A stretch of DNA of 64,000 nucleotides from NCBI GenBank assembly GCA_035602195.1, contig DATNMU010000216.1, forward strand, positions 4,853-68,852, read 5' to 3'. Positions within the stretch are counted from its first letter, which is position 1. Every line of letters starts with the position of its first letter. This DNA is from Candidatus Acidiferrum sp. (GTDB lineage Bacteria > Acidobacteriota > Terriglobia > Terriglobales > Acidobacteriaceae). The translations under genes and the position numbers were made by a program. The notes beneath the pieces are model-generated. The model ran no database searches. It was not told the origin of the DNA and was given only the letters and a program-made list of their open reading frames with translations. Positions 26,641 through 41,116 of this stretch are shown one piece after another.

Positions 26641-26742
26641 ATGTTGCCGCTTTGTAACGCTGTTGGCGCAGAGCACAGTGGGCGAACCTGCCCCTGTAAT
26701 GCGGCAGTCCGGTTGCAAGCCCGGACAGTGAAGGAGGGTCGC

Positions 26743-35673: not shown

Positions 35674-36236
35674 CCCTTTCATGCAGTCATCCTGAGACCC
35701 ACACCCTTTGCGGCCCAAATGACCGGGCTAAACGACCTATTCATTTCGTCCTACCCACGCTCACATCTGCGCAGGTTCATCCGGGTCCGGCTCGCGCACC
35801 GGCGCATCCGGATTCTCCGGAGCATCAGGGGGTTCCTTAATCGGGGGCGGCGAAGGCTCCGGCGGTTTCCGCACGCGAAGAAAATCAGGCGGGAAGGTTT
35901 CAACTTCCAGAGAAACGGTCATCCCCCTCAGATGCCCAAACTGCAGAAATGGAAGCCGCGCCCCCAATCGCACCGCCTGCGCGCATCACCGGCAAACACC
36001 CGCGCCCCAACTCGCATCTCATTCCTGAACACGGTCGCGCCCGACGCGTCCAGCAGTTCGGACTCGCGAAGACGAACAGCGTCAGCGAATCGGCGGAGGA
36101 TATGAGGCGGTGAGGTTCAGATTTTTGCTGTTTCTCTGAACGGAGCCAACGAGCTATCTACGCCGATTCAGAGTCCCTCGCAAGCGCGCCCCTTCAGCAA
36201 CCTGCCCTGAGCCAAGCCGCACCCAGCCTTGCCACG

Positions 36237-36520
36237 GATTGTCATCCCGAGCGCAGCAAGATCACTCGCGAAGCGAATGATCCTGCGAAGTCGAGGGACC
36301 TGCTGTCTGCCTACATCGCCACCGATGAGCGGCCCTCGCTTTTCCGCTCACACAGGCACGCCCCATGTGGAGACAGCCGCCTCGGCTGTCCAAGCCTGGG
36401 CGCAGCCCGGCGCCCCCTACCACACTGCCGCCCCCCCGCTGACAAATCCGAATAAACACGCATGTTTGAAATACCGTGGAAGAGCGGCGCTTCCAGCGCC
36501 GCGTAAAGGCGCTTCTGCCT
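36237..36520 (+). repeat. Composite repeat, about 285 bp, copy 1 (family A + B + C modules)
   Basis: About 85-90% identical by eye to 37299-37600 in the same orientation, apart from a roughly 30-bp indel. A third partial copy lies at 37705-37790. Confidence 0.9.
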
Positions 36521-36531
36521 GGCGCAGCCCT

Positions 36532-37068
36532 TCAGCGCCCCGATAACGCATTCGCGCCACCGCCCCTTACCCCCCGCGCATCCAACCCCTGCCCCTCACC
36601 CGCGCCCCGCCCCTTCTCTTCCTTCTTCGCGTACGACCCTCCTCGCCACCGCCGCAACAAATGCCACGCCTCCAAATATCTTTCATACTTATTCTGCCGT
36701 CTCCACGGAGCCAGCCAGATGCTTCCCTTCCGCAGCGCCACCACTCCCGCCGGAATCACATACCACAGGTCCAGCGGAATCAGATACGCCGCCACATAAT
36801 CAATCTCCTCTAGTATGTGCCGCAATCTTTTTCCCGACGGCATGTGGCACGGATACGCCCCTCCCTTCGGCTTCCTCATCGTCGACTTCACCTGCACCCG
36901 GTTCACCAGCCCATCCCGCTCCACAATCAAGTCATAAGGAGCCGAATCTCCCCACAGCTTCCCCACCCGAAACCCCTGCTCCACTCCCCGCGCCAAAAAT
37001 CGCGCCTCCGCCCACTCCCCCCGTTCTTTCGCATTCTTGAATTGCATCCCCCGTTGTCCCATCGCCAT
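36532..37068 (-). CDS. PD-(D/E)XK endonuclease-like protein (group-I-intron-endonuclease-like family, PDDEXK_5 type)
   Basis: KERGEWAEARFLARGVEQGFRVGKLWGDSAPYDLIVERDGLVNRVQVKST has the E...D...(Q/E)VK nuclease-core pattern. The Gly/Arg-rich C-terminal tail is probably repeat-derived. Confidence 0.6.
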   Translation of the reverse strand: MAMGQRGMQFKNAKERGEWAEARFLARGVEQGFRVGKLWGDSAPYDLIVERDGLVNRVQVKSTMRKPKGGAYPCHMPSGKRLRHILEEIDYVAAYLIPLDLWYVIPAGVVALRKGSIWLAPWRRQNKYERYLEAWHLLRRWRGGSYAKKEEKGRGAGEGQGLDARGVRGGGANALSGR

Positions 37069-37298
37069 CCTCGCCTTCCCAAAAGAAAAGCGCGGCCCCT
37101 GTGGAATACAAAAGGCCGCGCTCCAGATTTTTTTCTAGTTTTTACTCTATATTTCCATTATATCAATCAGCAAACCCCTAAAGCGCCACCTTAGCCAGCA
37201 ATATTTCTCCTTTCCCTGCCACCACATACCCTCAATCGCGTAATTTCTGCCTATTGACAACATTCCCCGCAAATTGAAAAAAGAGTTCGCTAACCACC

Positions 37299-37600
37299 GA
37301 TTGTCATCCCGAGCGCAGCAAGATCATTCGCGAAGCGAAGGATCTTGCGAAGTCGAGGGACCTGCTGTCTGCCTACGTCGCCACCAATGAGCGGCCCTAG
37401 CTTTTTCGCTCATACAAGCTCGGACCATGTGGAGACAGCCGCCTCGGCTGTCCAAGCCTGAGCCTGCCCTGAGCGATAGCCGAAGGGGCGAAGCCCGGCG
37501 CCCCCGACCACACTGCCCGCCCCCCGCTGACAAATCCAAATAAATACGGATGCCTGAAATACTTGGAAGAGCGGCGCTTCCAGCGCCGCGTAAGCCGCCT
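37299..37600 (+). repeat. Composite repeat, about 300 bp, copy 2
   Basis: Direct repeat of 36237-36520 on the other side of the endonuclease gene. Confidence 0.9.
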
Positions 37601-38001
37601 TTGGGTGGCGCAGCGCTTCAGCGCTGCGATAAAACATGGACTAGAGGAACCGGGCTTCAGCCCGGTCGCCTAAGACCTGTCCTCCTCCAACACCCTTGCA
37701 ACGAATTGTCATCCCGAGCGAAGCAAGATCATTCGCGAAGCGAAGGATCCGGCAAAGTCGAAGGACCTGCTGTTTGCCTACGTCGCCACTAATGACCGAC
37801 AGCACGCTGTCTTCCTGAGCGCAGCCGAAGGGATCTCCGCCGCACCCTCTCGCCGGCTGGCAGCAGCAGAAAGTGACGAAATAACTCCGCCCGCTGTGCT
37901 GAAAACGCGTCAGTCCCTATTGCATGAGGACAATCTAGTTTGTCCGCCGGACTAAGTTTGTGAAGTGTGAACGTCCCCCCTCACGGCAAAACCGGGCTTG
38001 A

Positions 38002-38769
38002 GTGTGTAACTCGCCCGTCCAATTTCCTCCTTCTGATCCTATAGCAACAAAGCAGTTGACTCTTAAGTCCCTCGGGCCTCTAATGGCAGGCGTCGGGGGC
38101 TTTATGGACTTTCAGGCAGGAAATGCAGGGGAAGACGACAATGTCTACCGCTTTGAAGGTGTTACTAATTTTCAAGGACATCTAGAAATACGGCAAGGCC
38201 AGCTGGTCTATCTCGTTGTTCAAACCAGTGGCGACTCTAGACCTCCCGAGATAAGAGTGGTTCCTTCAGGCGGAGAGGCATTCAACGCTTTCGCATCAGC
38301 GGAGGTTTACGCAGAAGGACGCAATATCTTTGTTCGCGCTTATCGCGCGGTGAGGACTGGCTTACATAGAGTCTATGTCACAGCGGAGGATGCGGTGGTT
38401 ACCGTTGTCCAGTTTAGTGGGGACCTCATTGACAAGCTTAGGCATATGCGGCCCTCCAAGACAACCTGCATGTTCTGCACCGCTCTCCTTATGATTGCGA
38501 TCGTATTTGCGCTTCACGCCTATGCAATACCTGCGGGGGCACATGCATTAGAAGTGCTAGCGGCCAGTTATGCTACAGTGGGGGCCATCGTCGAGGCAGT
38601 CAAACAGCACATTCCCGCCAGGACGCTCGACTTTCTCGAGGATGCACTAAGGATACTGCTTGAACAGCTACACGTTGCGCCTGGATTCGCGCTCCACCCA
38701 GTTGATGCAGCTACGGAGTGGGTCTGCGGTCAGATGCGCCTTTGCCCACCACGTGCAGCCGAGGCCTAA
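38002..38769 (+). CDS. Hypothetical single-pass membrane protein (N-terminal beta-rich domain, TM helix, C-terminal helical domain); start uncertain (GTG 38002 or ATG 38083)
   Basis: 255 aa. YRFEGVTNFQGHLEIRQGQLVYLVVQTSGDSRPPEIRVV...HRVYVTAEDAVVTVVQF, then the TM helix CMFCTALLMIAIVFALHAYAI. Lower GC and rarer codons (cta, ata, aga, tta) than the flanking genes. No recognised family. Confidence 0.55.
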   Translation: MCNSPVQFPPSDPIATKQLTLKSLGPLMAGVGGFMDFQAGNAGEDDNVYRFEGVTNFQGHLEIRQGQLVYLVVQTSGDSRPPEIRVVPSGGEAFNAFASAEVYAEGRNIFVRAYRAVRTGLHRVYVTAEDAVVTVVQFSGDLIDKLRHMRPSKTTCMFCTALLMIAIVFALHAYAIPAGAHALEVLAASYATVGAIVEAVKQHIPARTLDFLEDALRILLEQLHVAPGFALHPVDAATEWVCGQMRLCPPRAAEA

Positions 38770-38898
38770 AGCTGAGAATAGCCCTTTAGGATCCAACCTC
38801 CCAAACCCTGTAAGCAGTTTGCGTGTGACTGCCCCACTCTAGCCAATACCGGGATTGAGTCGGCCACGCGCCTCGATGACAACAAAGTTAGTAAGTCG

Positions 38899-40365
38899 TT
38901 GATGCAGTTCCGGGCATCATCCTTTTTTGCTGTTAGAATTTGCGTCATGCACGCAGCGGTCGAACTTCTTGAGAAGTACGGACTAGTCCGGGACACCGAT
39001 TCACTGCGTGTAACCGAGATTGTCAAACGCAAGATCGTTCGCCTCCAGGAGGAACTGTTCTCGACGGTTGTCACCCAACAACAGGAAGACTATGGCACCG
39101 ATCTCGCCGTCAGTCGAGAAATGGACCCCTTCACTTTCTTGGCAAGCAAATCCCTGCGAGGCGAAACGGCCTGCGGCGAATATGGATGCAGGGTTGAAAA
39201 GCTTGACGCGCTTGGGCGTTACGCTGCTCTGTACGCGAACCAGATTATCCTTCCTCTTCCTCTCACCGATCCCTCGACGATGGATGGCCCTGAGGAGGCC
39301 GCTCAGGAAGTTTCCATGGCTGCGCTGGCGCTCCTCCGTCTGCGACCGCTCTTCGATGCTGGCATCCTCTACCCGGTAATTAGGCGATCTTTCCACTGCC
39401 GTCACACTCTCAGGTGGTGCCAGGAGATGCAAGCGATCGTGGACCGGGCGTCATTGAATATGATGAAGGCCTTGAAAGATGATTTCTTAGTAAGGTTTCA
39501 ACTTCCAGACAAGGCTCCGACGCGAATCCCCAGTATGTACATCGAGGGTCCAGAAGACTTCCTGGAGCATGGCCAGATCGTGATGCTGTTCAACGAACCG
39601 GAGGAATGGAGAGCGAAGAGATGGAAATTCGATGACGAAGGAATGGTCGAGGTCCGCGGCGACAGGAAGCTTGCCGCCCTTTACAGAATCTTCATCGGCA
39701 TAGCAGAAGACACCTCCTTCTATCTAGCATATGGGCGCAACCGGAACGCCCGGCTGCTCACGAATCTTCCAGGGGAGACCTTCCTGCTGGATGCGCTGAC
39801 CGGAGACGACGAAGTCTCGGCAAGCAGCGCAGCCCTCCACGACTGCATGACCCACTCGTTGCCCTTGCTGGCGGGCCTCCCAATTTCCAGGCTCTTGGCG
39901 ATTCGACACGAGGAGCGTGATTCTTTCGAACGATATCGTCTAGCGGTTAGGCAAATCCTGCTGCAAGTCTCCCAGGCGGGTAAGCGGATTCGCAAGAAGG
40001 AAATGCGCGAGCTCTTTCAAGAACGGATCGAACCCGAGCTTGCAAGGATGAAATCGGAGCTTTACCAGGAACGGCGCAGGCAGCGGAGACGAGTTGGAGT
40101 GGGCCTGGCGGGCCTGGCTGCCATGGTGGGAATGGGCGCATTTGGCGGAATTGTCCCCGGAGTTGCGACCGCCGCGGCTGCTGGCGGAGTTTCTTCTGGA
40201 ATAGTGCCCGCGATCGCTAAAGCAGCCATGGCCGTCGCGCCGGGAATCGCCGGAACCAGCCTCTTAGGCAAAGCAGCGCAGTCCTACTGTGAGCACGGAG
40301 CCACCATAAAGGAGAGAAACGATTTCTACTTCTTGCTTCGGCTGACCCAGGAAGCTGAAAGTTGA
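38899..40365 (+). CDS. Hypothetical 472-488-aa protein with a C-terminal Gly/Ala-zipper hydrophobic tail (alternative start at ATG 38947)
   Basis: Long uninterrupted ORF in the lower-GC region. The C-terminus reads RRRQRRRVGVGLAGLAAMVGMGAFGGIVPGVATAAAAGGVSSGIVPAIAKAAMAVAPGIAGTSLLG. No motif I can assign. Confidence 0.65.
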   Translation: MMQFRASSFFAVRICVMHAAVELLEKYGLVRDTDSLRVTEIVKRKIVRLQEELFSTVVTQQQEDYGTDLAVSREMDPFTFLASKSLRGETACGEYGCRVEKLDALGRYAALYANQIILPLPLTDPSTMDGPEEAAQEVSMAALALLRLRPLFDAGILYPVIRRSFHCRHTLRWCQEMQAIVDRASLNMMKALKDDFLVRFQLPDKAPTRIPSMYIEGPEDFLEHGQIVMLFNEPEEWRAKRWKFDDEGMVEVRGDRKLAALYRIFIGIAEDTSFYLAYGRNRNARLLTNLPGETFLLDALTGDDEVSASSAALHDCMTHSLPLLAGLPISRLLAIRHEERDSFERYRLAVRQILLQVSQAGKRIRKKEMRELFQERIEPELARMKSELYQERRRQRRRVGVGLAGLAAMVGMGAFGGIVPGVATAAAAGGVSSGIVPAIAKAAMAVAPGIAGTSLLGKAAQSYCEHGATIKERNDFYFLLRLTQEAES

Positions 40366-40405
40366 AAAGCGCTAGCGGAAATCGGACCCAGACGGAACGT
40401 TCCCA

Positions 40406-40705
40406 CTACCTAGTTCGAATCACACCCAGAGAGAAGCGCAGAGCAACACACACTTCATTCATTCGTGCCGAACTAAGCTGGGCCACACGTTTCCCCAGGC
40501 GCTGTCGCGACACCGTAACGGCATTGTGCAGGTTCACCGCGCACGGGGACTTCATGCCATCCTCGATGAACAAATGGAACGCTTCCAAAAAAGCCAAAGC
40601 CCCGAGCATCGCTCGAGGCTTCGAGATACTAGACGACGTTCGCCAAACACTTATCATGATAAACGGGGCACTTGAATTGTCAAGAAACTTTGGTATCGAG
40701 TGACC
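40406..40705 (-). pseudogene. MazF/PemK-like toxin remnant. The N-terminus is fused to or overlaps the tRNA-like gene, and no antitoxin partner is present.
   Basis: The C-terminal half GMKSPCAVNLHNAVTVSRQRLGKRVAQLSSARMNEVCVALRFSLG matches the MazF pattern GL..D..A....IR.I...RL...IG.LS...L..L..AL...L. The N-terminal half is poorly conserved, and the first 16 codons of the tracked ORF are tRNA sequence. Confidence 0.4.
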
Positions 40706-40706
40706 G

Positions 40707-40792
40707 AGGAGGGCAAGGGAGTCGAACCCTAGTGGCTGCAAACCACTCGACATTTGGCGAACGTCGTCCAGTACCCACTGGCAGTACCCTCC
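40707..40792 (-). tRNA. Non-canonical tRNA-like gene with SelC/allo-tRNA-type architecture. The anticodon is uncertain (GCC if the loop is 7 nt) and is not UCA.
   Basis: Reverse complement: GGAGGGTA-CTG-CCAGT-GGGT-ACTGG-A-CGACGT-TCGCCAA-ATGTCG-AGTGG-TTTGCAG-CCACT-AGGG-TTCGACT-CCCT-TGCCCTCC-T. Elements: 8-bp acceptor (9 with the flanking A:T), 5-bp D stem with 4-nt loop, 6-bp anticodon stem, 5-bp variable-arm stem, 4-bp T stem, canonical TTCGACT T-loop. CCA is not encoded. Confidence 0.65.
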
Positions 40793-41116
40793 TAAACGAA
40801 TCGTCCACCGTGTAACATCGTATGGGCACTTACTTGCGAAACGAACTGTGTGGTCATAAATATTTGGGGAACTGTACCAATTCGGGAGAACAAAAAGGGC
40901 GTGGCCTACTCAAGCCCGCTTTTGGCTTGAACGGTGCGGTTCGTGTGATCCACATCTCATCGCTCGGCAGAAGAGGGTCGATGGCTAGAGAAGCTTTTAT
41001 TTCTTTTGCTTTTCTCTGCGCCTCTGTGTCTCTGTGGTGAAAGGGCGGGCATTCTCAAAGGTAGTTCGCCAGAGATTTTGAATTAAAACTCCCGACCCAA
41101 TCCGCGCCACCCCCCA

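What the first reader, a model, noticed from the sequence alone, without database searches (positions are those of the whole stretch)
40707..40793. tRNA-like gene with an 8/4 (or 9/4) SelC/allo-tRNA-type cloverleaf and a non-UCA anticodon loop
The minus strand folds by hand into a cloverleaf that is not the canonical 7/5 form.
- Acceptor stem: GGAGGGTA/TGCCCTCC, 8 bp including one G-U, or 9 bp if the flanking A:T is counted.
- T stem: only 4 bp (AGGG/CCCT), stacked directly on the acceptor, with a textbook TTCGACT T-loop.
- D arm: a 5-bp stem (CCAGT/ACTGG) closing a 4-nt loop, instead of the usual 3-4 bp stem with a large GG loop.
- Variable arm: long, AGTGG-TTTGCAG-CCACT.
- Anticodon arm: a 6-bp stem (CGACGT/ATGTCG) leaves the loop UCGCCAA, meaning C33 with anticodon GCC; the alternative is a 9-nt loop UUCGCCAAA.

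Forcing a canonical 7/5 fold leaves 5 unpaired nucleotides after the D arm. This geometry is known for tRNA-Sec (8/5, 9/4). It is also known for the allo-tRNAs (8/4, 9/3) reported from Clostridia, Proteobacteria and Acidobacteria (Mukai et al. 2017, cited from memory). Those tRNAs carry Ser identity through the long variable arm together with unrelated anticodons. If this gene is functional, it could insert a non-cognate amino acid at Gly or other codons. Standard annotation is likely to miss or mislabel it.
Basis: partly seen in the sequence, partly recalled or inferred. Interest (0 to 1): 0.85.

Follow-up and report, generated by a model that had tools for sequence, protein, structure and literature searches.

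The report
Odd-shaped tRNA with antisense RNA partner
The flagged sequence is a real member of the already-described "allo-tRNA" family of soil Acidobacteria, and it sits in a conserved ~325-base cassette next to a small RNA gene that is complementary to the tRNA's anticodon arm, as if the cell carries an off-switch for a potentially mistranslating tRNA.

Summary
Window 40707-40792 (-) folds as described: 8-bp acceptor stem, 4-bp T stem, tRNA-Sec-like D arm, long variable arm, loop UCGCCAA. ARAGORN calls it tRNA-Gly(GCC). Rfam tRNA-Sec scores 46.7 bits against a cut-off of 47.

A metagenome scan returned 66 loci (60 distinct) with the same D arm and various anticodons. Compensatory changes support the 8/4 geometry. 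It is therefore a new member of the (8/4) allo-tRNA family (Mukai 2017).

The new result concerns what follows the tRNA. About 60 nt downstream lie a near-consensus promoter (TTGACA-16-TATCAT), a 21-nt stretch complementary to the D-stem 3' strand, anticodon-stem 5' strand and whole anticodon loop, and an intrinsic terminator.
- Across 55 modules this pairing holds in 96.5% of cells, against 27-39% in slid controls.
- 13 of 16 anticodon-arm pairs, including anticodon positions, show compensatory changes.
- G-U outnumbers A-C 89 to 14, so the pairing acts in RNA.
- 117 phage 8/4 tRNA-Ser genes lack such a partner.

I infer an antisense sRNA that masks a potentially toxic missense tRNA, in a toxin-antitoxin-like arrangement. 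This is untested. I found no prior report of the partner.

The parts
40707..40792 (-). (8/4) allo-tRNA gene, G1 to discriminator U73 (86 nt, no encoded CCA). Acceptor 40785-40792 / 40708-40715; D arm 40768-40781; anticodon arm 40748-40766; variable arm 40731-40747; T arm 40716-40730.
   Evidence: covariation in 55 homologues.
40754..40760 (-). Anticodon loop UCGCCAA; anticodon GCC at 40756-40758; C33 instead of U33.
   Evidence: C33 occurs in 22 of 57 family members. In the alignment of 55 modules the position-33 pair reads CG 22, UA 32, UG 1, so C33 is matched by G in the partner.
40793..40793 (-). A(-1), able to pair with U73 (possible ninth acceptor pair in the precursor, or a 9/4 reading).
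   Evidence: The -1/73 combinations across the family are U/G 46, A/U 12, C/U 2. The Rfam tRNA-Sec alignment uses this pair.
40817..40822 (-). -10-like box TACGAT, the putative promoter of the tRNA. No conserved -35.
   Evidence: A TAnnnT box (TAGAAT or TACAAT most often) lies 24-39 nt (56 of 58 at 24-31 nt) upstream of G1 in 58 of 58 family loci.
40802..40809 (-). 5' leader segment GGUGGACG with weak complementarity (with G-U) to CGUUCGCC of the anticodon arm.
   Evidence: Leader against own arm scores a mean of 8.6, against 7.0 for swapped arms. This is a modest effect.
40696..40703 (-). 3' trailer element UCACUCGA, complementary to UCGAGUGG (3' end of the anticodon stem plus the 5' strand of the variable arm).
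   Evidence: 95.7% of cells paired; 4 of 8 pairs with changes on both sides; G-U 55 against A-C 6.
40656..40683 (-). Sigma-70-type promoter of the antisense sRNA: TTGACA-16 nt-TATCAT (11 of 12 matches).
   Evidence: Among 57 family loci the -35 is exactly TTGACA in 27, and a candidate promoter was found in 49. In those 49 the spacer is 16-18 nt (16 or 17 in 46), and the -10 ends 3-8 nt before the duplex in 46.
40627..40647 (-). Antisense element UUUGGCGAACGUCGUCUAGUA. It pairs 21 of 21 (one G-U) with tRNA nt 20-40: D-stem 3' strand, anticodon-stem 5' strand and the whole anticodon loop.
   Evidence: Inverted repeat I1. Covariation. Cofold ddG -17 kcal/mol.
40587..40624 (-). Intrinsic terminator (14-bp GC-rich hairpin plus U run) ending the sRNA and any read-through from the tRNA.
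   Evidence: A terminator-like hairpin is present in at least 42 of 57 family loci.
40588..40649 (-). Predicted sRNA of about 60 nt ('anti-allo-tRNA'): a free 5' antisense segment followed by the terminator hairpin. The ends are inferred, not mapped.
   Evidence: No Rfam family matches it.
40577..40901 (-). Whole conserved cassette of about 325 bp: upstream hairpin, tRNA promoter, tRNA, trailer, sRNA gene.
   Evidence: This is the only stretch shared (88-90% identity) with the closest relatives L422, L450, L390, L356 and L406. The flanks are unrelated.
40429..40582 (-). C-terminal half of a MazF/PemK toxin gene, truncated where the window-specific segment that holds the cassette begins. This is context, not part of the cassette.
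   Evidence: Pfam PemK 2.8e-6, profile positions 54-108 only. Intact mazE-mazF lies at the same place in L015 and L019.

Best explanation
SHOWN. The locus is a compact RNA-only cassette of about 325 bp that recurs in acidobacterial soil contigs.
- Gene 1 is an (8/4) allo-tRNA with anticodon GCC.
- Gene 2 starts about 60 nt after the tRNA on the same strand. It has its own near-consensus promoter and an intrinsic terminator.
- The first ~21 nt of the predicted gene-2 RNA are complementary to the tRNA's D-stem 3' strand, anticodon-stem 5' strand and entire anticodon loop.
- This complementarity co-varies with the anticodon arm across the family.

INFERRED. The sRNA binds the tRNA starting at the exposed anticodon loop. 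It opens the D and anticodon arms and so keeps the tRNA off the ribosome, or marks the duplex for RNase III.

The long variable arm is the element that makes other allo-tRNAs Ser acceptors. The free tRNA would therefore put Ser at GGC/GGU Gly codons.

The cassette would then behave like an all-RNA toxin-antitoxin pair or a gated mistranslation switch. The stable tRNA would be the toxic partner. The strongly promoted sRNA, presumably short-lived, would be the antidote.

A short 3' trailer element, and more weakly the 5' leader, also pair with the tRNA body. The primary transcript is therefore probably already masked in cis.
For: The tRNA is real and of the 8/4 type.

Partner in the window:
- 21-nt inverted repeat at 40627-40647 against 40753-40773.
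- Promoter matching 11 of 12 positions, plus a terminator.
- The sRNA alone folds with a largely open 5' end (only a weak 5-bp hairpin) followed by a terminator hairpin.

Conservation across the family:
- A complementary run of 10-21 nt lies about 57-66 nt after the tRNA in most of the 67 loci examined. Upstream control flanks give 5-11 nt.
- Own partner against swapped partner: exact run of 10.4 against 5.0, out of 13.
- On 55 aligned modules 96.5% of cells are paired, against 27-39% when slid. No shuffle out of 500 reaches the observed values.
- 13 of 16 pairs over the anticodon stem and loop have changes on both sides. These include nt 33 (UA 32, CG 22), nt 35 (CG 36, UA 15) and nt 36 (GC 22, CG 13).
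- G-U outnumbers A-C by 89 to 14, so selection acts on RNA made from the tRNA-sense strand.

Specificity:
- Cognate tRNA-sRNA dimers gain -14 to -21 kcal/mol net (six of the seven -17 to -21; window pair -17.0). Most non-cognate pairs gain 0 to -7. Related or partly matching pairs reach -8 to -13.

Negative control:
- 117 phage 8/4 tRNA-Ser genes with Ser anticodons have no partner (median best run 6; one of 117 reaches 11).
- Other soil 8/4-like families with non-Ser loops do have one at +56 to +65.

Promoter asymmetry:
- The sRNA has a consensus -35 and -10. The tRNA has only a -10 box.

Published experiments:
- Acidobacterial allo-tRNAs insert Ser at Leu codons and kill E. coli when induced. 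Allo-tRNA genes lie near toxin-antitoxin loci (PMC5389517).

Context here:
- The ~536-nt window-specific segment that holds the cassette replaces mazE and half of mazF.
Against: - No expression data. The transcription start, the RNA ends and the stability of either RNA are unknown.
- The trailer element lies upstream of the sRNA promoter, so it can only act in cis. In a read-through transcript the antisense region would also act in cis; that fold is -96 kcal/mol. A purely cis mechanism is therefore not excluded.
- This copy has C33 and a C at the U8-equivalent position, where the family has T in at least 90% of members. C33 occurs in 22 of 57 members. Efficient decoding may therefore not be what selection maintains.
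- U73 with C35 and C36 are glycine identity elements (from memory), so this tRNA might be charged with Gly and be harmless.
- My sample is biased. The sequences are also related by descent.
- No conserved protein partner was found, and no defence-system hit (the only PADLOC hit among the neighbours is a homing-endonuclease model).
Confidence: 0.55

Rival explanations
1. Self-masked precursor acting only in cis. The tRNA, trailer and antisense region are one transcript ending at the shared terminator. The 3' extension, and the leader, hold the tRNA in an inactive long-range duplex. Processing by RNase P, RNase E, RNase Z or RNase III releases it under some condition. The internal promoter would be incidental or only boost the 3' part.
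For: - The trailer element directly after N73 pairs with the variable-arm/anticodon-stem junction and co-varies. It lies upstream of the sRNA promoter, so it must act in cis.
- The read-through transcript folds into the long duplex rather than the cloverleaf (-96.1 kcal/mol, z -6.1).
- No terminator was found between the tRNA and the sRNA.
- The leader shows weak complementarity too.
Against: - The -35 and -10 boxes in front of the antisense segment are among the best-conserved features of the spacer. The -10 ends 3-8 nt before the pairing starts (alignment).
- Orphan sRNA genes with promoter and terminator but no tRNA exist: L418 650-735 and L352 121-250.
- The cis and trans mechanisms are not mutually exclusive.
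Confidence: 0.2
2. Reversed roles. The sRNA is the effector, for example titrating the host's own tRNA-Gly(GCC) through loop pairing or targeting mRNAs. The allo-tRNA-like RNA is its decoy or antidote.
For: - The 5' end of the sRNA, UUUGGCGAA, could also pair with a canonical UUGCCAA anticodon loop (inference from the sequence).
- RNA toxins that sequester tRNAs are known, such as CreT (PMC8501985, listed).
- C33 and other departures from tRNA rules suggest that decoding may not be the selected function.
Against: - Complementarity extends 21 nt into the allo-tRNA-specific D and anticodon stems, well beyond any host-tRNA loop.
- Allo-tRNAs themselves are toxic and translationally active in E. 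coli (PMC5389517).
- The promoter asymmetry and the expected stabilities fit the sRNA as antidote.
- Orphan sRNA genes persist without a tRNA. That would be lethal if the sRNA were the toxin.
Confidence: 0.08
3. An ordinary though oddly shaped spare tRNA (Gly or Ser isoacceptor), or a decaying copy of one. The downstream inverted repeat would be kept by DNA-level processes such as quasi-palindrome correction, with no RNA function.
For: - ARAGORN types it as tRNA-Gly.
- U73, C35 and C36 match Gly identity elements (from memory).
- C33 and C at the U8-equivalent position look like decay.
- The gene is absent from the syntenic site in 80 related genomes.
Against: - The strong excess of G-U over A-C in both long-range helices (89:14 and 55:6) is not expected from DNA-level repeat correction.
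- The promoter and terminator around the repeat arm are conserved.
- All stems of this copy are intact, and its partner matches 21 of 21.
- True 8/4 tRNA-Ser genes have no such repeat.
Confidence: 0.07
4. A 9/4 selenocysteine tRNA that recodes a Gly codon to Sec.
For: - Best Rfam match is tRNA-Sec, in a 9/4 register.
- The -1:73 positions can pair in 58 of 60 family members.
Against: - The score is just under the gathering threshold.
- The family carries many different anticodons on one backbone, unlike tRNA-Sec.
- Discriminator G/U at position 73 fits the 8/4 reading. The base after it varies.
- The family was already separated from tRNA-Sec by its discoverers.
Confidence: 0.02

Closest known systems
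(8/4) allo-tRNAs of Acidobacteria (Mukai et al. 2017, NAR 45:2776; PMC5389517)
   Same: - 12-bp acceptor/T branch split 8/4.
- tRNA-Sec-like D arm with a 4-nt loop, 6-bp anticodon stem, long variable arm, G73/U73.
- Found through the tRNA-Sec covariance model.
- Soil acidobacterial origin.
- Diverse non-Ser anticodons on one backbone. GCG and GUC are common, as in the paper.
- Location next to toxin-antitoxin genes.
   Different: - The paper and later papers I could search do not mention a complementary or antisense partner, a trailer pairing or a cassette structure.
- This copy has C33 and a C at the U8-equivalent position.
- Global identity to the published engineered chassis sequences is only 52-61 of 86.
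Type I and type VIII toxin-antitoxin systems (antisense-RNA antitoxins; RNA toxins such as SdsR/RyeA and CreT/CreA)
   Same: - A small RNA with its own promoter and terminator, encoded beside its target, and extensively complementary to it.
- Cognate pairs are specific.
- Both partners are RNAs, as in type VIII.
- CreT also acts through the tRNA pool.
   Different: - Here the presumed toxin is itself a tRNA that would act by mistranslation.
- The two genes are in tandem on the same strand, not overlapping antisense genes.
- Toxicity, neutralisation and differential stability are all untested for this cassette.
Bacterial tRNA-Sec (selC)
   Same: - Extended acceptor stem, long D stem with a tetraloop, 6-bp anticodon stem, long variable arm.
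- 46.7 bits to RF01852.
   Different: - Anticodon GCC, not UCA.
- 8/4 (12 bp) rather than 8/5 (13 bp).
- Member of a family with many anticodons.
- Just below the Rfam gathering score.
Phage and bacterial (8/4) tRNA-Ser
   Same: The same GGAGGG acceptor, 8/4 branch and long variable arm. More than 120 examples occur in IMG/VR contigs.
   Different: - They carry Ser anticodons (UGA, CGA, GGA, GCU).
- Most have a different D arm.
- They lack the downstream antisense partner.

Membership tests
(8/4) allo-tRNA (Mukai 2017) | 12-bp acceptor/T branch composed of an 8-bp acceptor stem and a 4-bp T stem | tested here: met
   MFE fold. The eighth acceptor pair co-varies (GC 31, AU 19, GU 5), and 3 of 4 T-stem pairs have compensatory changes in 55 homologues.
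(8/4) allo-tRNA (Mukai 2017) | tRNA-Sec-like D arm (long stem, 4-nt loop with G18 G19 Y20) | tested here: met
   CCAGU/ACUGG plus a G-A closing mismatch, loop GGGU. The stem is nearly invariant in the family, so it gives no covariation evidence.
(8/4) allo-tRNA (Mukai 2017) | Long variable arm and 6-bp anticodon stem | tested here: met
   - Variable arm: 7-bp stem with a 3-nt loop.
- Anticodon stem CGACGU/AUGUCG.
- Variable-arm and anticodon-stem pairs co-vary, although a 1-nt indel in many homologues blurs the anticodon-stem counts.
(8/4) allo-tRNA (Mukai 2017) | Discriminator G73 or U73, and an anticodon unrelated to Ser | tested here: met
   U73 at 40707; anticodon GCC. The family has G73 in 46 members and U73 in 14.
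(8/4) allo-tRNA (Mukai 2017) | High similarity to the Rfam tRNA-Sec covariance model without being tRNA-Sec; acidobacterial or soil origin | tested here: met
   46.7 bits against RF01852. Neighbouring IF3 is up to 97% identical to Terriglobia MAGs. Homologues come from soil metagenome contigs.
(8/4) allo-tRNA (Mukai 2017) | Sequence relatedness to published allo-tRNA sequences | tested here: inconclusive
   52-61 of 86 identical in global alignments to the chassis sequences in the supplement of PMC7590224. It has the same D-arm geometry as '1642S'. The 2017 sequence set is not held as text.
(8/4) allo-tRNA (Mukai 2017) | Charged by SerRS (or AlaRS) and active on the ribosome | not testable with these tools
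   Shown for other members in E. coli (PMC5389517). This copy has A3:U70 (no Ala element), U73 and C33.
Bacterial tRNA-Sec | UCA anticodon, 13-bp acceptor/T branch (8/5), score above the Rfam gathering threshold | tested here: not met
   Anticodon GCC; 8/4 (9/4 only if -1:73 is counted); 46.7 bits, below 47.
Bacterial tRNA-Sec | selA/selB/selD and SECIS-bearing selenoprotein genes in the genome | not tested
   Only a 64-kb window is available.
Canonical tRNA-Gly(GCC) | Class I 7/5 cloverleaf recognised by the general tRNA model | tested here: not met
   No Rfam tRNA hit at gathering threshold. Long variable arm and 8/4 branch. ARAGORN's label rests on the anticodon alone.
Canonical tRNA-Gly(GCC) | Gly identity set (U73, C35, C36, G1:C72, C2:G71, G3:C70; from memory of E. 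coli studies) | tested here: inconclusive
   U73, C35, C36 and G1:C72 are present. Positions 2:71 and 3:70 are G:C and A:U. Charging cannot be tested here.
RNA-antitoxin toxin-antitoxin systems (type I / type VIII) | Adjacent small RNA gene with its own promoter and terminator, complementary to the toxin RNA | tested here: met
   Sequence-level only: promoter 11 of 12, terminator, 21-nt complementarity. Conserved and co-varying in 55 modules.
RNA-antitoxin toxin-antitoxin systems (type I / type VIII) | Toxin arrests growth; antitoxin neutralises it; antitoxin is less stable than the toxin | not testable with these tools
   Only indirect evidence: other allo-tRNAs kill E. coli on induction (PMC5389517).

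The most novel reading that the evidence does not exclude
Allo-tRNA cassettes are a new class of all-RNA toxin-antitoxin (or abortive-infection/addiction) modules. The toxin is a mistranslating tRNA. The antitoxin is a small antisense RNA that masks the anticodon arm. Different cassettes stay mutually orthogonal because anticodon arm and antisense RNA co-evolve. This would also explain the puzzling diversity of allo-tRNA anticodons and how cells tolerate missense-suppressor tRNA genes.
Probability: 0.35. Interest if true: 0.9.

Novelty: new variant of a known kind. Interest (0 to 1): 0.78.

Why it matters
Allo-tRNAs have been a curiosity since 2017. They are translationally competent missense and nonsense suppressors, carried by soil bacteria, with no known way of being tolerated or used.

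A conserved, co-varying antisense RNA next to each gene gives a concrete and testable answer: the anticodon arm is masked by a dedicated RNA. If confirmed, three things follow.
- It would be the first natural case of a tRNA regulated, or detoxified, by a cognate antisense RNA, and possibly a tRNA acting as the toxin of a toxin-antitoxin-like module.
- It would supply ready-made orthogonal tRNA/anti-tRNA pairs as off-switches for genetic-code engineering, where allo-tRNAs are already used as chassis.
- For annotation, these cassettes are currently mislabelled as tRNA-Gly and the like, or covered by spurious ORFs.

Tried and rejected
- Synteny. 80 Terriglobia genome loci fetched through IF3 carry no homologue of the tRNA upstream of infC (ARAGORN; single-sequence covariance model R1). 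The gene is not a conserved chromosomal tRNA at this site.
- BLAST of the tRNA against plasmid and phage collections. Nothing in plasmids; only T-arm matches to phage tRNA-Ser.
- First degenerate DNA pattern on viral contigs. Mostly chance hits.
- Second pattern on viral contigs. Saturated by phage 8/4 tRNA-Ser. These later served as the negative control. I then added a fixed D-loop-to-anticodon spacing and C/G at position 36.
- Search for a conserved neighbouring protein by clustering ORFs within about 2.5 kb of 60+ modules. No family is shared beyond small syntenic subgroups.
- PADLOC on the window's neighbours. Only a homing-endonuclease-like hit for the PD-(D/E)XK protein.
- Rfam for the sRNA. 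Only sub-threshold, terminator-driven matches.
- Extra copies of the tRNA or sRNA elsewhere in the window. None.
- Literature searches for an antisense partner of allo-tRNAs or for tRNA toxins with RNA antitoxins. Nothing found in the held library. That library is incomplete, and figures and the 2017 supplement are not held.
- A degraded class II tRNA pseudogene. Rejected for this copy because all five helices are intact and the partner matches perfectly.
Full report
1. THE OBSERVATION

- An unconstrained fold returns the same cloverleaf (-39.5 kcal/mol, z -2.5).
- ARAGORN calls a single tRNA in the 64-kb window, 'tRNA-Gly (gcc)', 87 nt.
- At Rfam gathering thresholds no tRNA-clan model (the general tRNA model, RF00005, or tRNA-Sec) reports it.
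- In a local scan tRNA-Sec (RF01852) aligns it end to end at 46.7 bits, 0.3 bits under its cut-off.
- Public gene calls on identical metagenome contigs place a spurious ORF across it.

2. WHERE IT SITS

The gene lies about 430 bp upstream of infC-rpmI-rplT-pheST, on the opposite strand. Seven metagenome contigs of the same species carry an identical copy.
- I fetched 80 genome loci from related Terriglobia (Ca. Sulfotelmatobacter and others; IF3 76-98% identical). None has the tRNA at this site.
- Homology to these relatives resumes only about 100 bp before infC, near window 41101-41115.
- Two relatives (L015, L019) have an intact mazE-mazF pair directly upstream of infC.
- The window keeps only the C-terminal half of mazF (40429-40582; Pfam PemK 2.8e-6).
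- The antitoxin gene and the first half of the toxin gene are replaced by a 536-bp segment that contains the tRNA.

3. THE FAMILY

Published allo-tRNA chassis sequences (supplement of PMC7590224) showed which positions to fix in a search pattern. A first pattern on viral contigs was saturated by phage (8/4) tRNA-Ser. I therefore added a fixed distance from the D loop to the anticodon and required C or G at anticodon position 36.

The single metagenome scan returned 119 loci.
- 66 of them (60 distinct once the window copy is added) carry the same D arm, CCAGUGGGUACUGG.
- Their anticodon loops include UCGCCAA, CUGCCAA, CUGCGAA, CCGCGAA, CUGUCAA and CCUUCAA, among others.
- The closest relatives (L356, L390, L450, L406, L422) are 88-90% identical to the window, but only over 40577-40901. 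The flanks are unrelated.

On a MAFFT alignment of 55 modules the cloverleaf keeps 94.4% of cells paired, against 36-50% when slid. The eighth acceptor pair (GC 31, AU 19, GU 5) and three of four T-stem pairs show compensatory changes.

This supports the 8/4 geometry and places the gene in the (8/4) allo-tRNA family of Mukai et al. 2017 (PMC5389517). That family is defined by the 8/4 or 9/3 branch, a tRNA-Sec-like D arm, a long variable arm, G73/U73 and diverse non-Ser anticodons in Acidobacteria.

The base before G1 and base 73 can pair in 58 of 60 members (U/G 46, A/U 12). A ninth pair in the precursor, or a 9/4 reading, therefore cannot be excluded. I prefer 8/4 because base 73 is G or U throughout, while the next base varies.

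4. THE NEW FEATURE

In the window an inverted repeat links 40753-40773 with 40627-40647 (21 nt, 20 Watson-Crick pairs plus one G-U). The first arm covers the tRNA's D-stem 3' strand, the anticodon-stem 5' strand and the whole anticodon loop.

Between the tRNA and the downstream arm lies a sigma-70-type promoter on the tRNA strand: TTGACA-16-TATCAT, 11 of 12 matches. Directly after the arm lies an intrinsic terminator. The implied RNA of about 60 nt folds with a largely open 5' segment (only a weak 5-bp hairpin) and a terminator hairpin. No Rfam family matches it.

The same layout recurs through the family: N73, about 4 nt, UCACUCGAC, about 15 nt, CTTGACA, 16-17 nt, TAnnnT, 3-8 nt, the antisense segment ending in CCAGUA, then a GC-rich hairpin with a U run. 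Among 57 loci:
- the -35 is exactly TTGACA in 27;
- a candidate promoter was found in 49, with a spacer of 16-18 nt (16 or 17 in 46);
- at least 42 have a terminator-like hairpin.

5. IS THE COMPLEMENTARITY SELECTED?

- In most of the 67 loci examined the best exact complementary run to the anticodon arm lies 57-66 nt after the tRNA and is 10-21 nt long. Upstream control flanks give 5-11 nt.
- Using only the variable 13 nt (anticodon-stem 5' strand plus loop), a tRNA's own partner gives a mean run of 10.4. Partners from other loci give 5.0.
- On the alignment the long-range pairs are 96.5% paired, against 27-39% when slid. No shuffle out of 500 reaches the observed values.
- In the helix over the anticodon stem and loop, 13 of 16 pairs have changes on both sides. 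These include nt 33 (UA 32, CG 22), nt 35 (CG 36, UA 15) and nt 36 (GC 22, CG 13).
- The trailer element UCACUCGA pairs with UCGAGUGG, the junction of anticodon stem and variable arm. It is 95.7% paired, with 4 of 8 pairs changed on both sides.
- G-U outnumbers A-C by 89 to 14 in the antisense helix and 55 to 6 in the trailer helix. This asymmetry is expected only if selection acts on RNA transcribed from the tRNA-sense strand. It argues against a purely DNA-level explanation.
- Predicted dimers of cognate tRNA and sRNA gain -14 to -21 kcal/mol after paying for unfolding the cloverleaf (six of the seven -17 to -21; the window pair -17.0). Most non-cognate pairs gain 0 to -7. Related or partly matching pairs reach -8 to -13, including the two close GCC relatives at -11 to -13.

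6. CONTROLS AND BREADTH

- 117 phage (8/4) tRNA-Ser genes with genuine Ser anticodons have no partner (median best run 6; one of 117 reaches 11).
- Soil 8/4 tRNAs with Ser anticodons also lack it.
- Other soil 8/4-like families with non-Ser loops have one at +56 to +65. Of the 47 soil hits outside the D-arm family, 19 reach 11 nt.
- Orphan sRNA genes without a tRNA also occur. One is an anti-GCC copy at L418 650-735. Another is a trailer plus anti-GCG sRNA immediately after an intact mazF in L352.
- No protein family is consistently adjacent to the cassette.
- PADLOC finds no defence system among the window's neighbours; its only hit is a homing-endonuclease model on the PD-(D/E)XK protein.

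7. MECHANISM

Shown: a two-gene RNA cassette in which a small RNA gene co-varies with the anticodon arm of an allo-tRNA.

Inferred: the sRNA binds the exposed anticodon loop with its 5' end and zips into the anticodon and D stems. This removes the tRNA from translation or exposes the duplex to RNase III.

Several lines make a toxin-antitoxin-like or gated-mistranslation role the best-supported reading:
- acidobacterial allo-tRNAs insert Ser at Leu codons in E. coli and kill the cell when induced;
- allo-tRNA genes lie near toxin-antitoxin loci (PMC5389517);
- the sRNA has a consensus promoter, whereas the tRNA has only a -10 box (58 of 58 loci);
- tRNAs are generally long-lived (inference from general knowledge).

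A cis component is likely as well. The trailer element can only act in the precursor. A read-through transcript folds into the long duplex instead of the cloverleaf (-96.1 kcal/mol, z -6.1). The 5' leader has weak complementarity of its own (8.6 against 7.0).

8. CAVEATS

- There are no expression data.
- This particular copy has C33 and a C at the U8-equivalent position, where the family has T in at least 90% of members. C33 occurs in 22 of 57 members spread over several anticodon classes. In the aligned modules it is matched by G in the partner: CG 22, UA 32, UG 1. Pairing therefore seems to be under tighter constraint than the U-turn.
- U73 with C35 and C36 could allow charging with Gly (from memory of E. 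coli identity studies), in which case this member would be harmless.
- The sequences are related by descent, so shuffle-based numbers overstate independence. The slid controls and the G-U/A-C asymmetry do not suffer from this problem.

9. NOVELTY

The tRNA itself is a new member of a known family.

I found no mention of an antisense or complementary partner, a trailer pairing or a cassette structure in the founding paper. The words 'antisense' and 'complementary' do not occur in it. I also found none in later allo-tRNA papers or in targeted searches. The 2017 figures and supplement are not held, so a depiction there cannot be excluded.

I rate the finding as a new variant of a known kind. There is a substantial chance (about 0.35) that it represents a new class of all-RNA toxin-antitoxin module.

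Noticed in passing
window 26667-26724 (+): Rfam Twister-P5 ribozyme (RF02684) hit above the gathering score: 49.7 bits against 37.6, E 2.5e-7. It is the only Rfam family reported at gathering threshold in the window.
   Followed up: no
window 40429-40582 (-); L015 3130-3710; L019 3107-3720: Truncated mazF/PemK toxin gene in the window. Related genomes carry an intact RHH-antitoxin plus MazF pair at the same position upstream of infC. The ~536-nt window-specific segment that holds the allo-tRNA cassette replaced the antitoxin gene and the 5' half of the toxin gene.
   Followed up: partly
window ~36177-41100: A variable island of about 5 kb between a conserved segment (36056-36176) and the infC leader. 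In several relatives those two lie only about 500-700 bp apart. The island holds three ORFs.
- A PD-(D/E)XK_5 / homing-endonuclease-like ORF at 36532-37068.
- A 255-aa ORF with no family at 38002-38769.
- A 488-aa ORF with a weak DUF6236 match at 38899-40365.

   Followed up: partly
window 36238-36546 and 37300-37686: Short dispersed repeats (REP or MITE-like) that also occur at unrelated positions and on either strand in many of the related genome loci. ORF translations share the peptide SRGGCLHM.
   Followed up: no
L418 650-735; L352 121-250: Orphan antisense sRNA genes with promoter and terminator but no adjacent tRNA.
- L418 carries an anti-GCC copy beside a GUC cassette.
- L352 carries a tRNA-less trailer plus anti-GCG sRNA directly after an intact mazF. 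The same contig also has a complete GCG cassette.

   Followed up: partly
L347, L355, L350, L392, L419, L361, L364, L433 and others: At least two further soil families of 8/4-like tRNAs with non-Ser loops.
- One has acceptor GGAGGG, D arm GGAGG..CCUCC, loop UUGACAC and T arm CCGGUUCGAGUCCGG.
- The other has T arm GGGGUUCGAGUCCCC.
Many members of these families have a 12-17-nt complement to the anticodon arm within about 120 nt downstream; in the first family it lies about 56-65 nt after the tRNA.
   Followed up: partly
L211-L330 (IMG/VR contigs): More than 120 viral contigs encode (8/4) tRNA-Ser with a GGAGGG acceptor stem and Ser anticodons. None of the 117 testable ones has an antisense partner, apart from one borderline 11-nt match.
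   Followed up: yes
alignment A2, column 34 (tRNA nt 33); window 40759: U33 is replaced by C in 22 of 57 family members, across several anticodon classes. In the alignment of 55 modules the position-33 pair reads CG 22, UA 32, UG 1, so each C33 there is matched by G in the partner. A tRNA family that tolerates loss of the universal U33 is unexplained. It may attenuate decoding.
   Followed up: partly
window 40856-40882 (-) and the equivalent position in family loci: A conserved small hairpin followed by an A/T-rich run lies about 65-90 nt upstream of the tRNA and marks the upstream edge of the cassette. It may insulate the cassette from upstream transcription, or it may be part of the tRNA promoter region.
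   Followed up: no
L069 3114-3187: A canonical tRNA-Cys(GCA) in a related genome encodes its 3' CCA. The allo-tRNA and its relatives do not.
   Followed up: no
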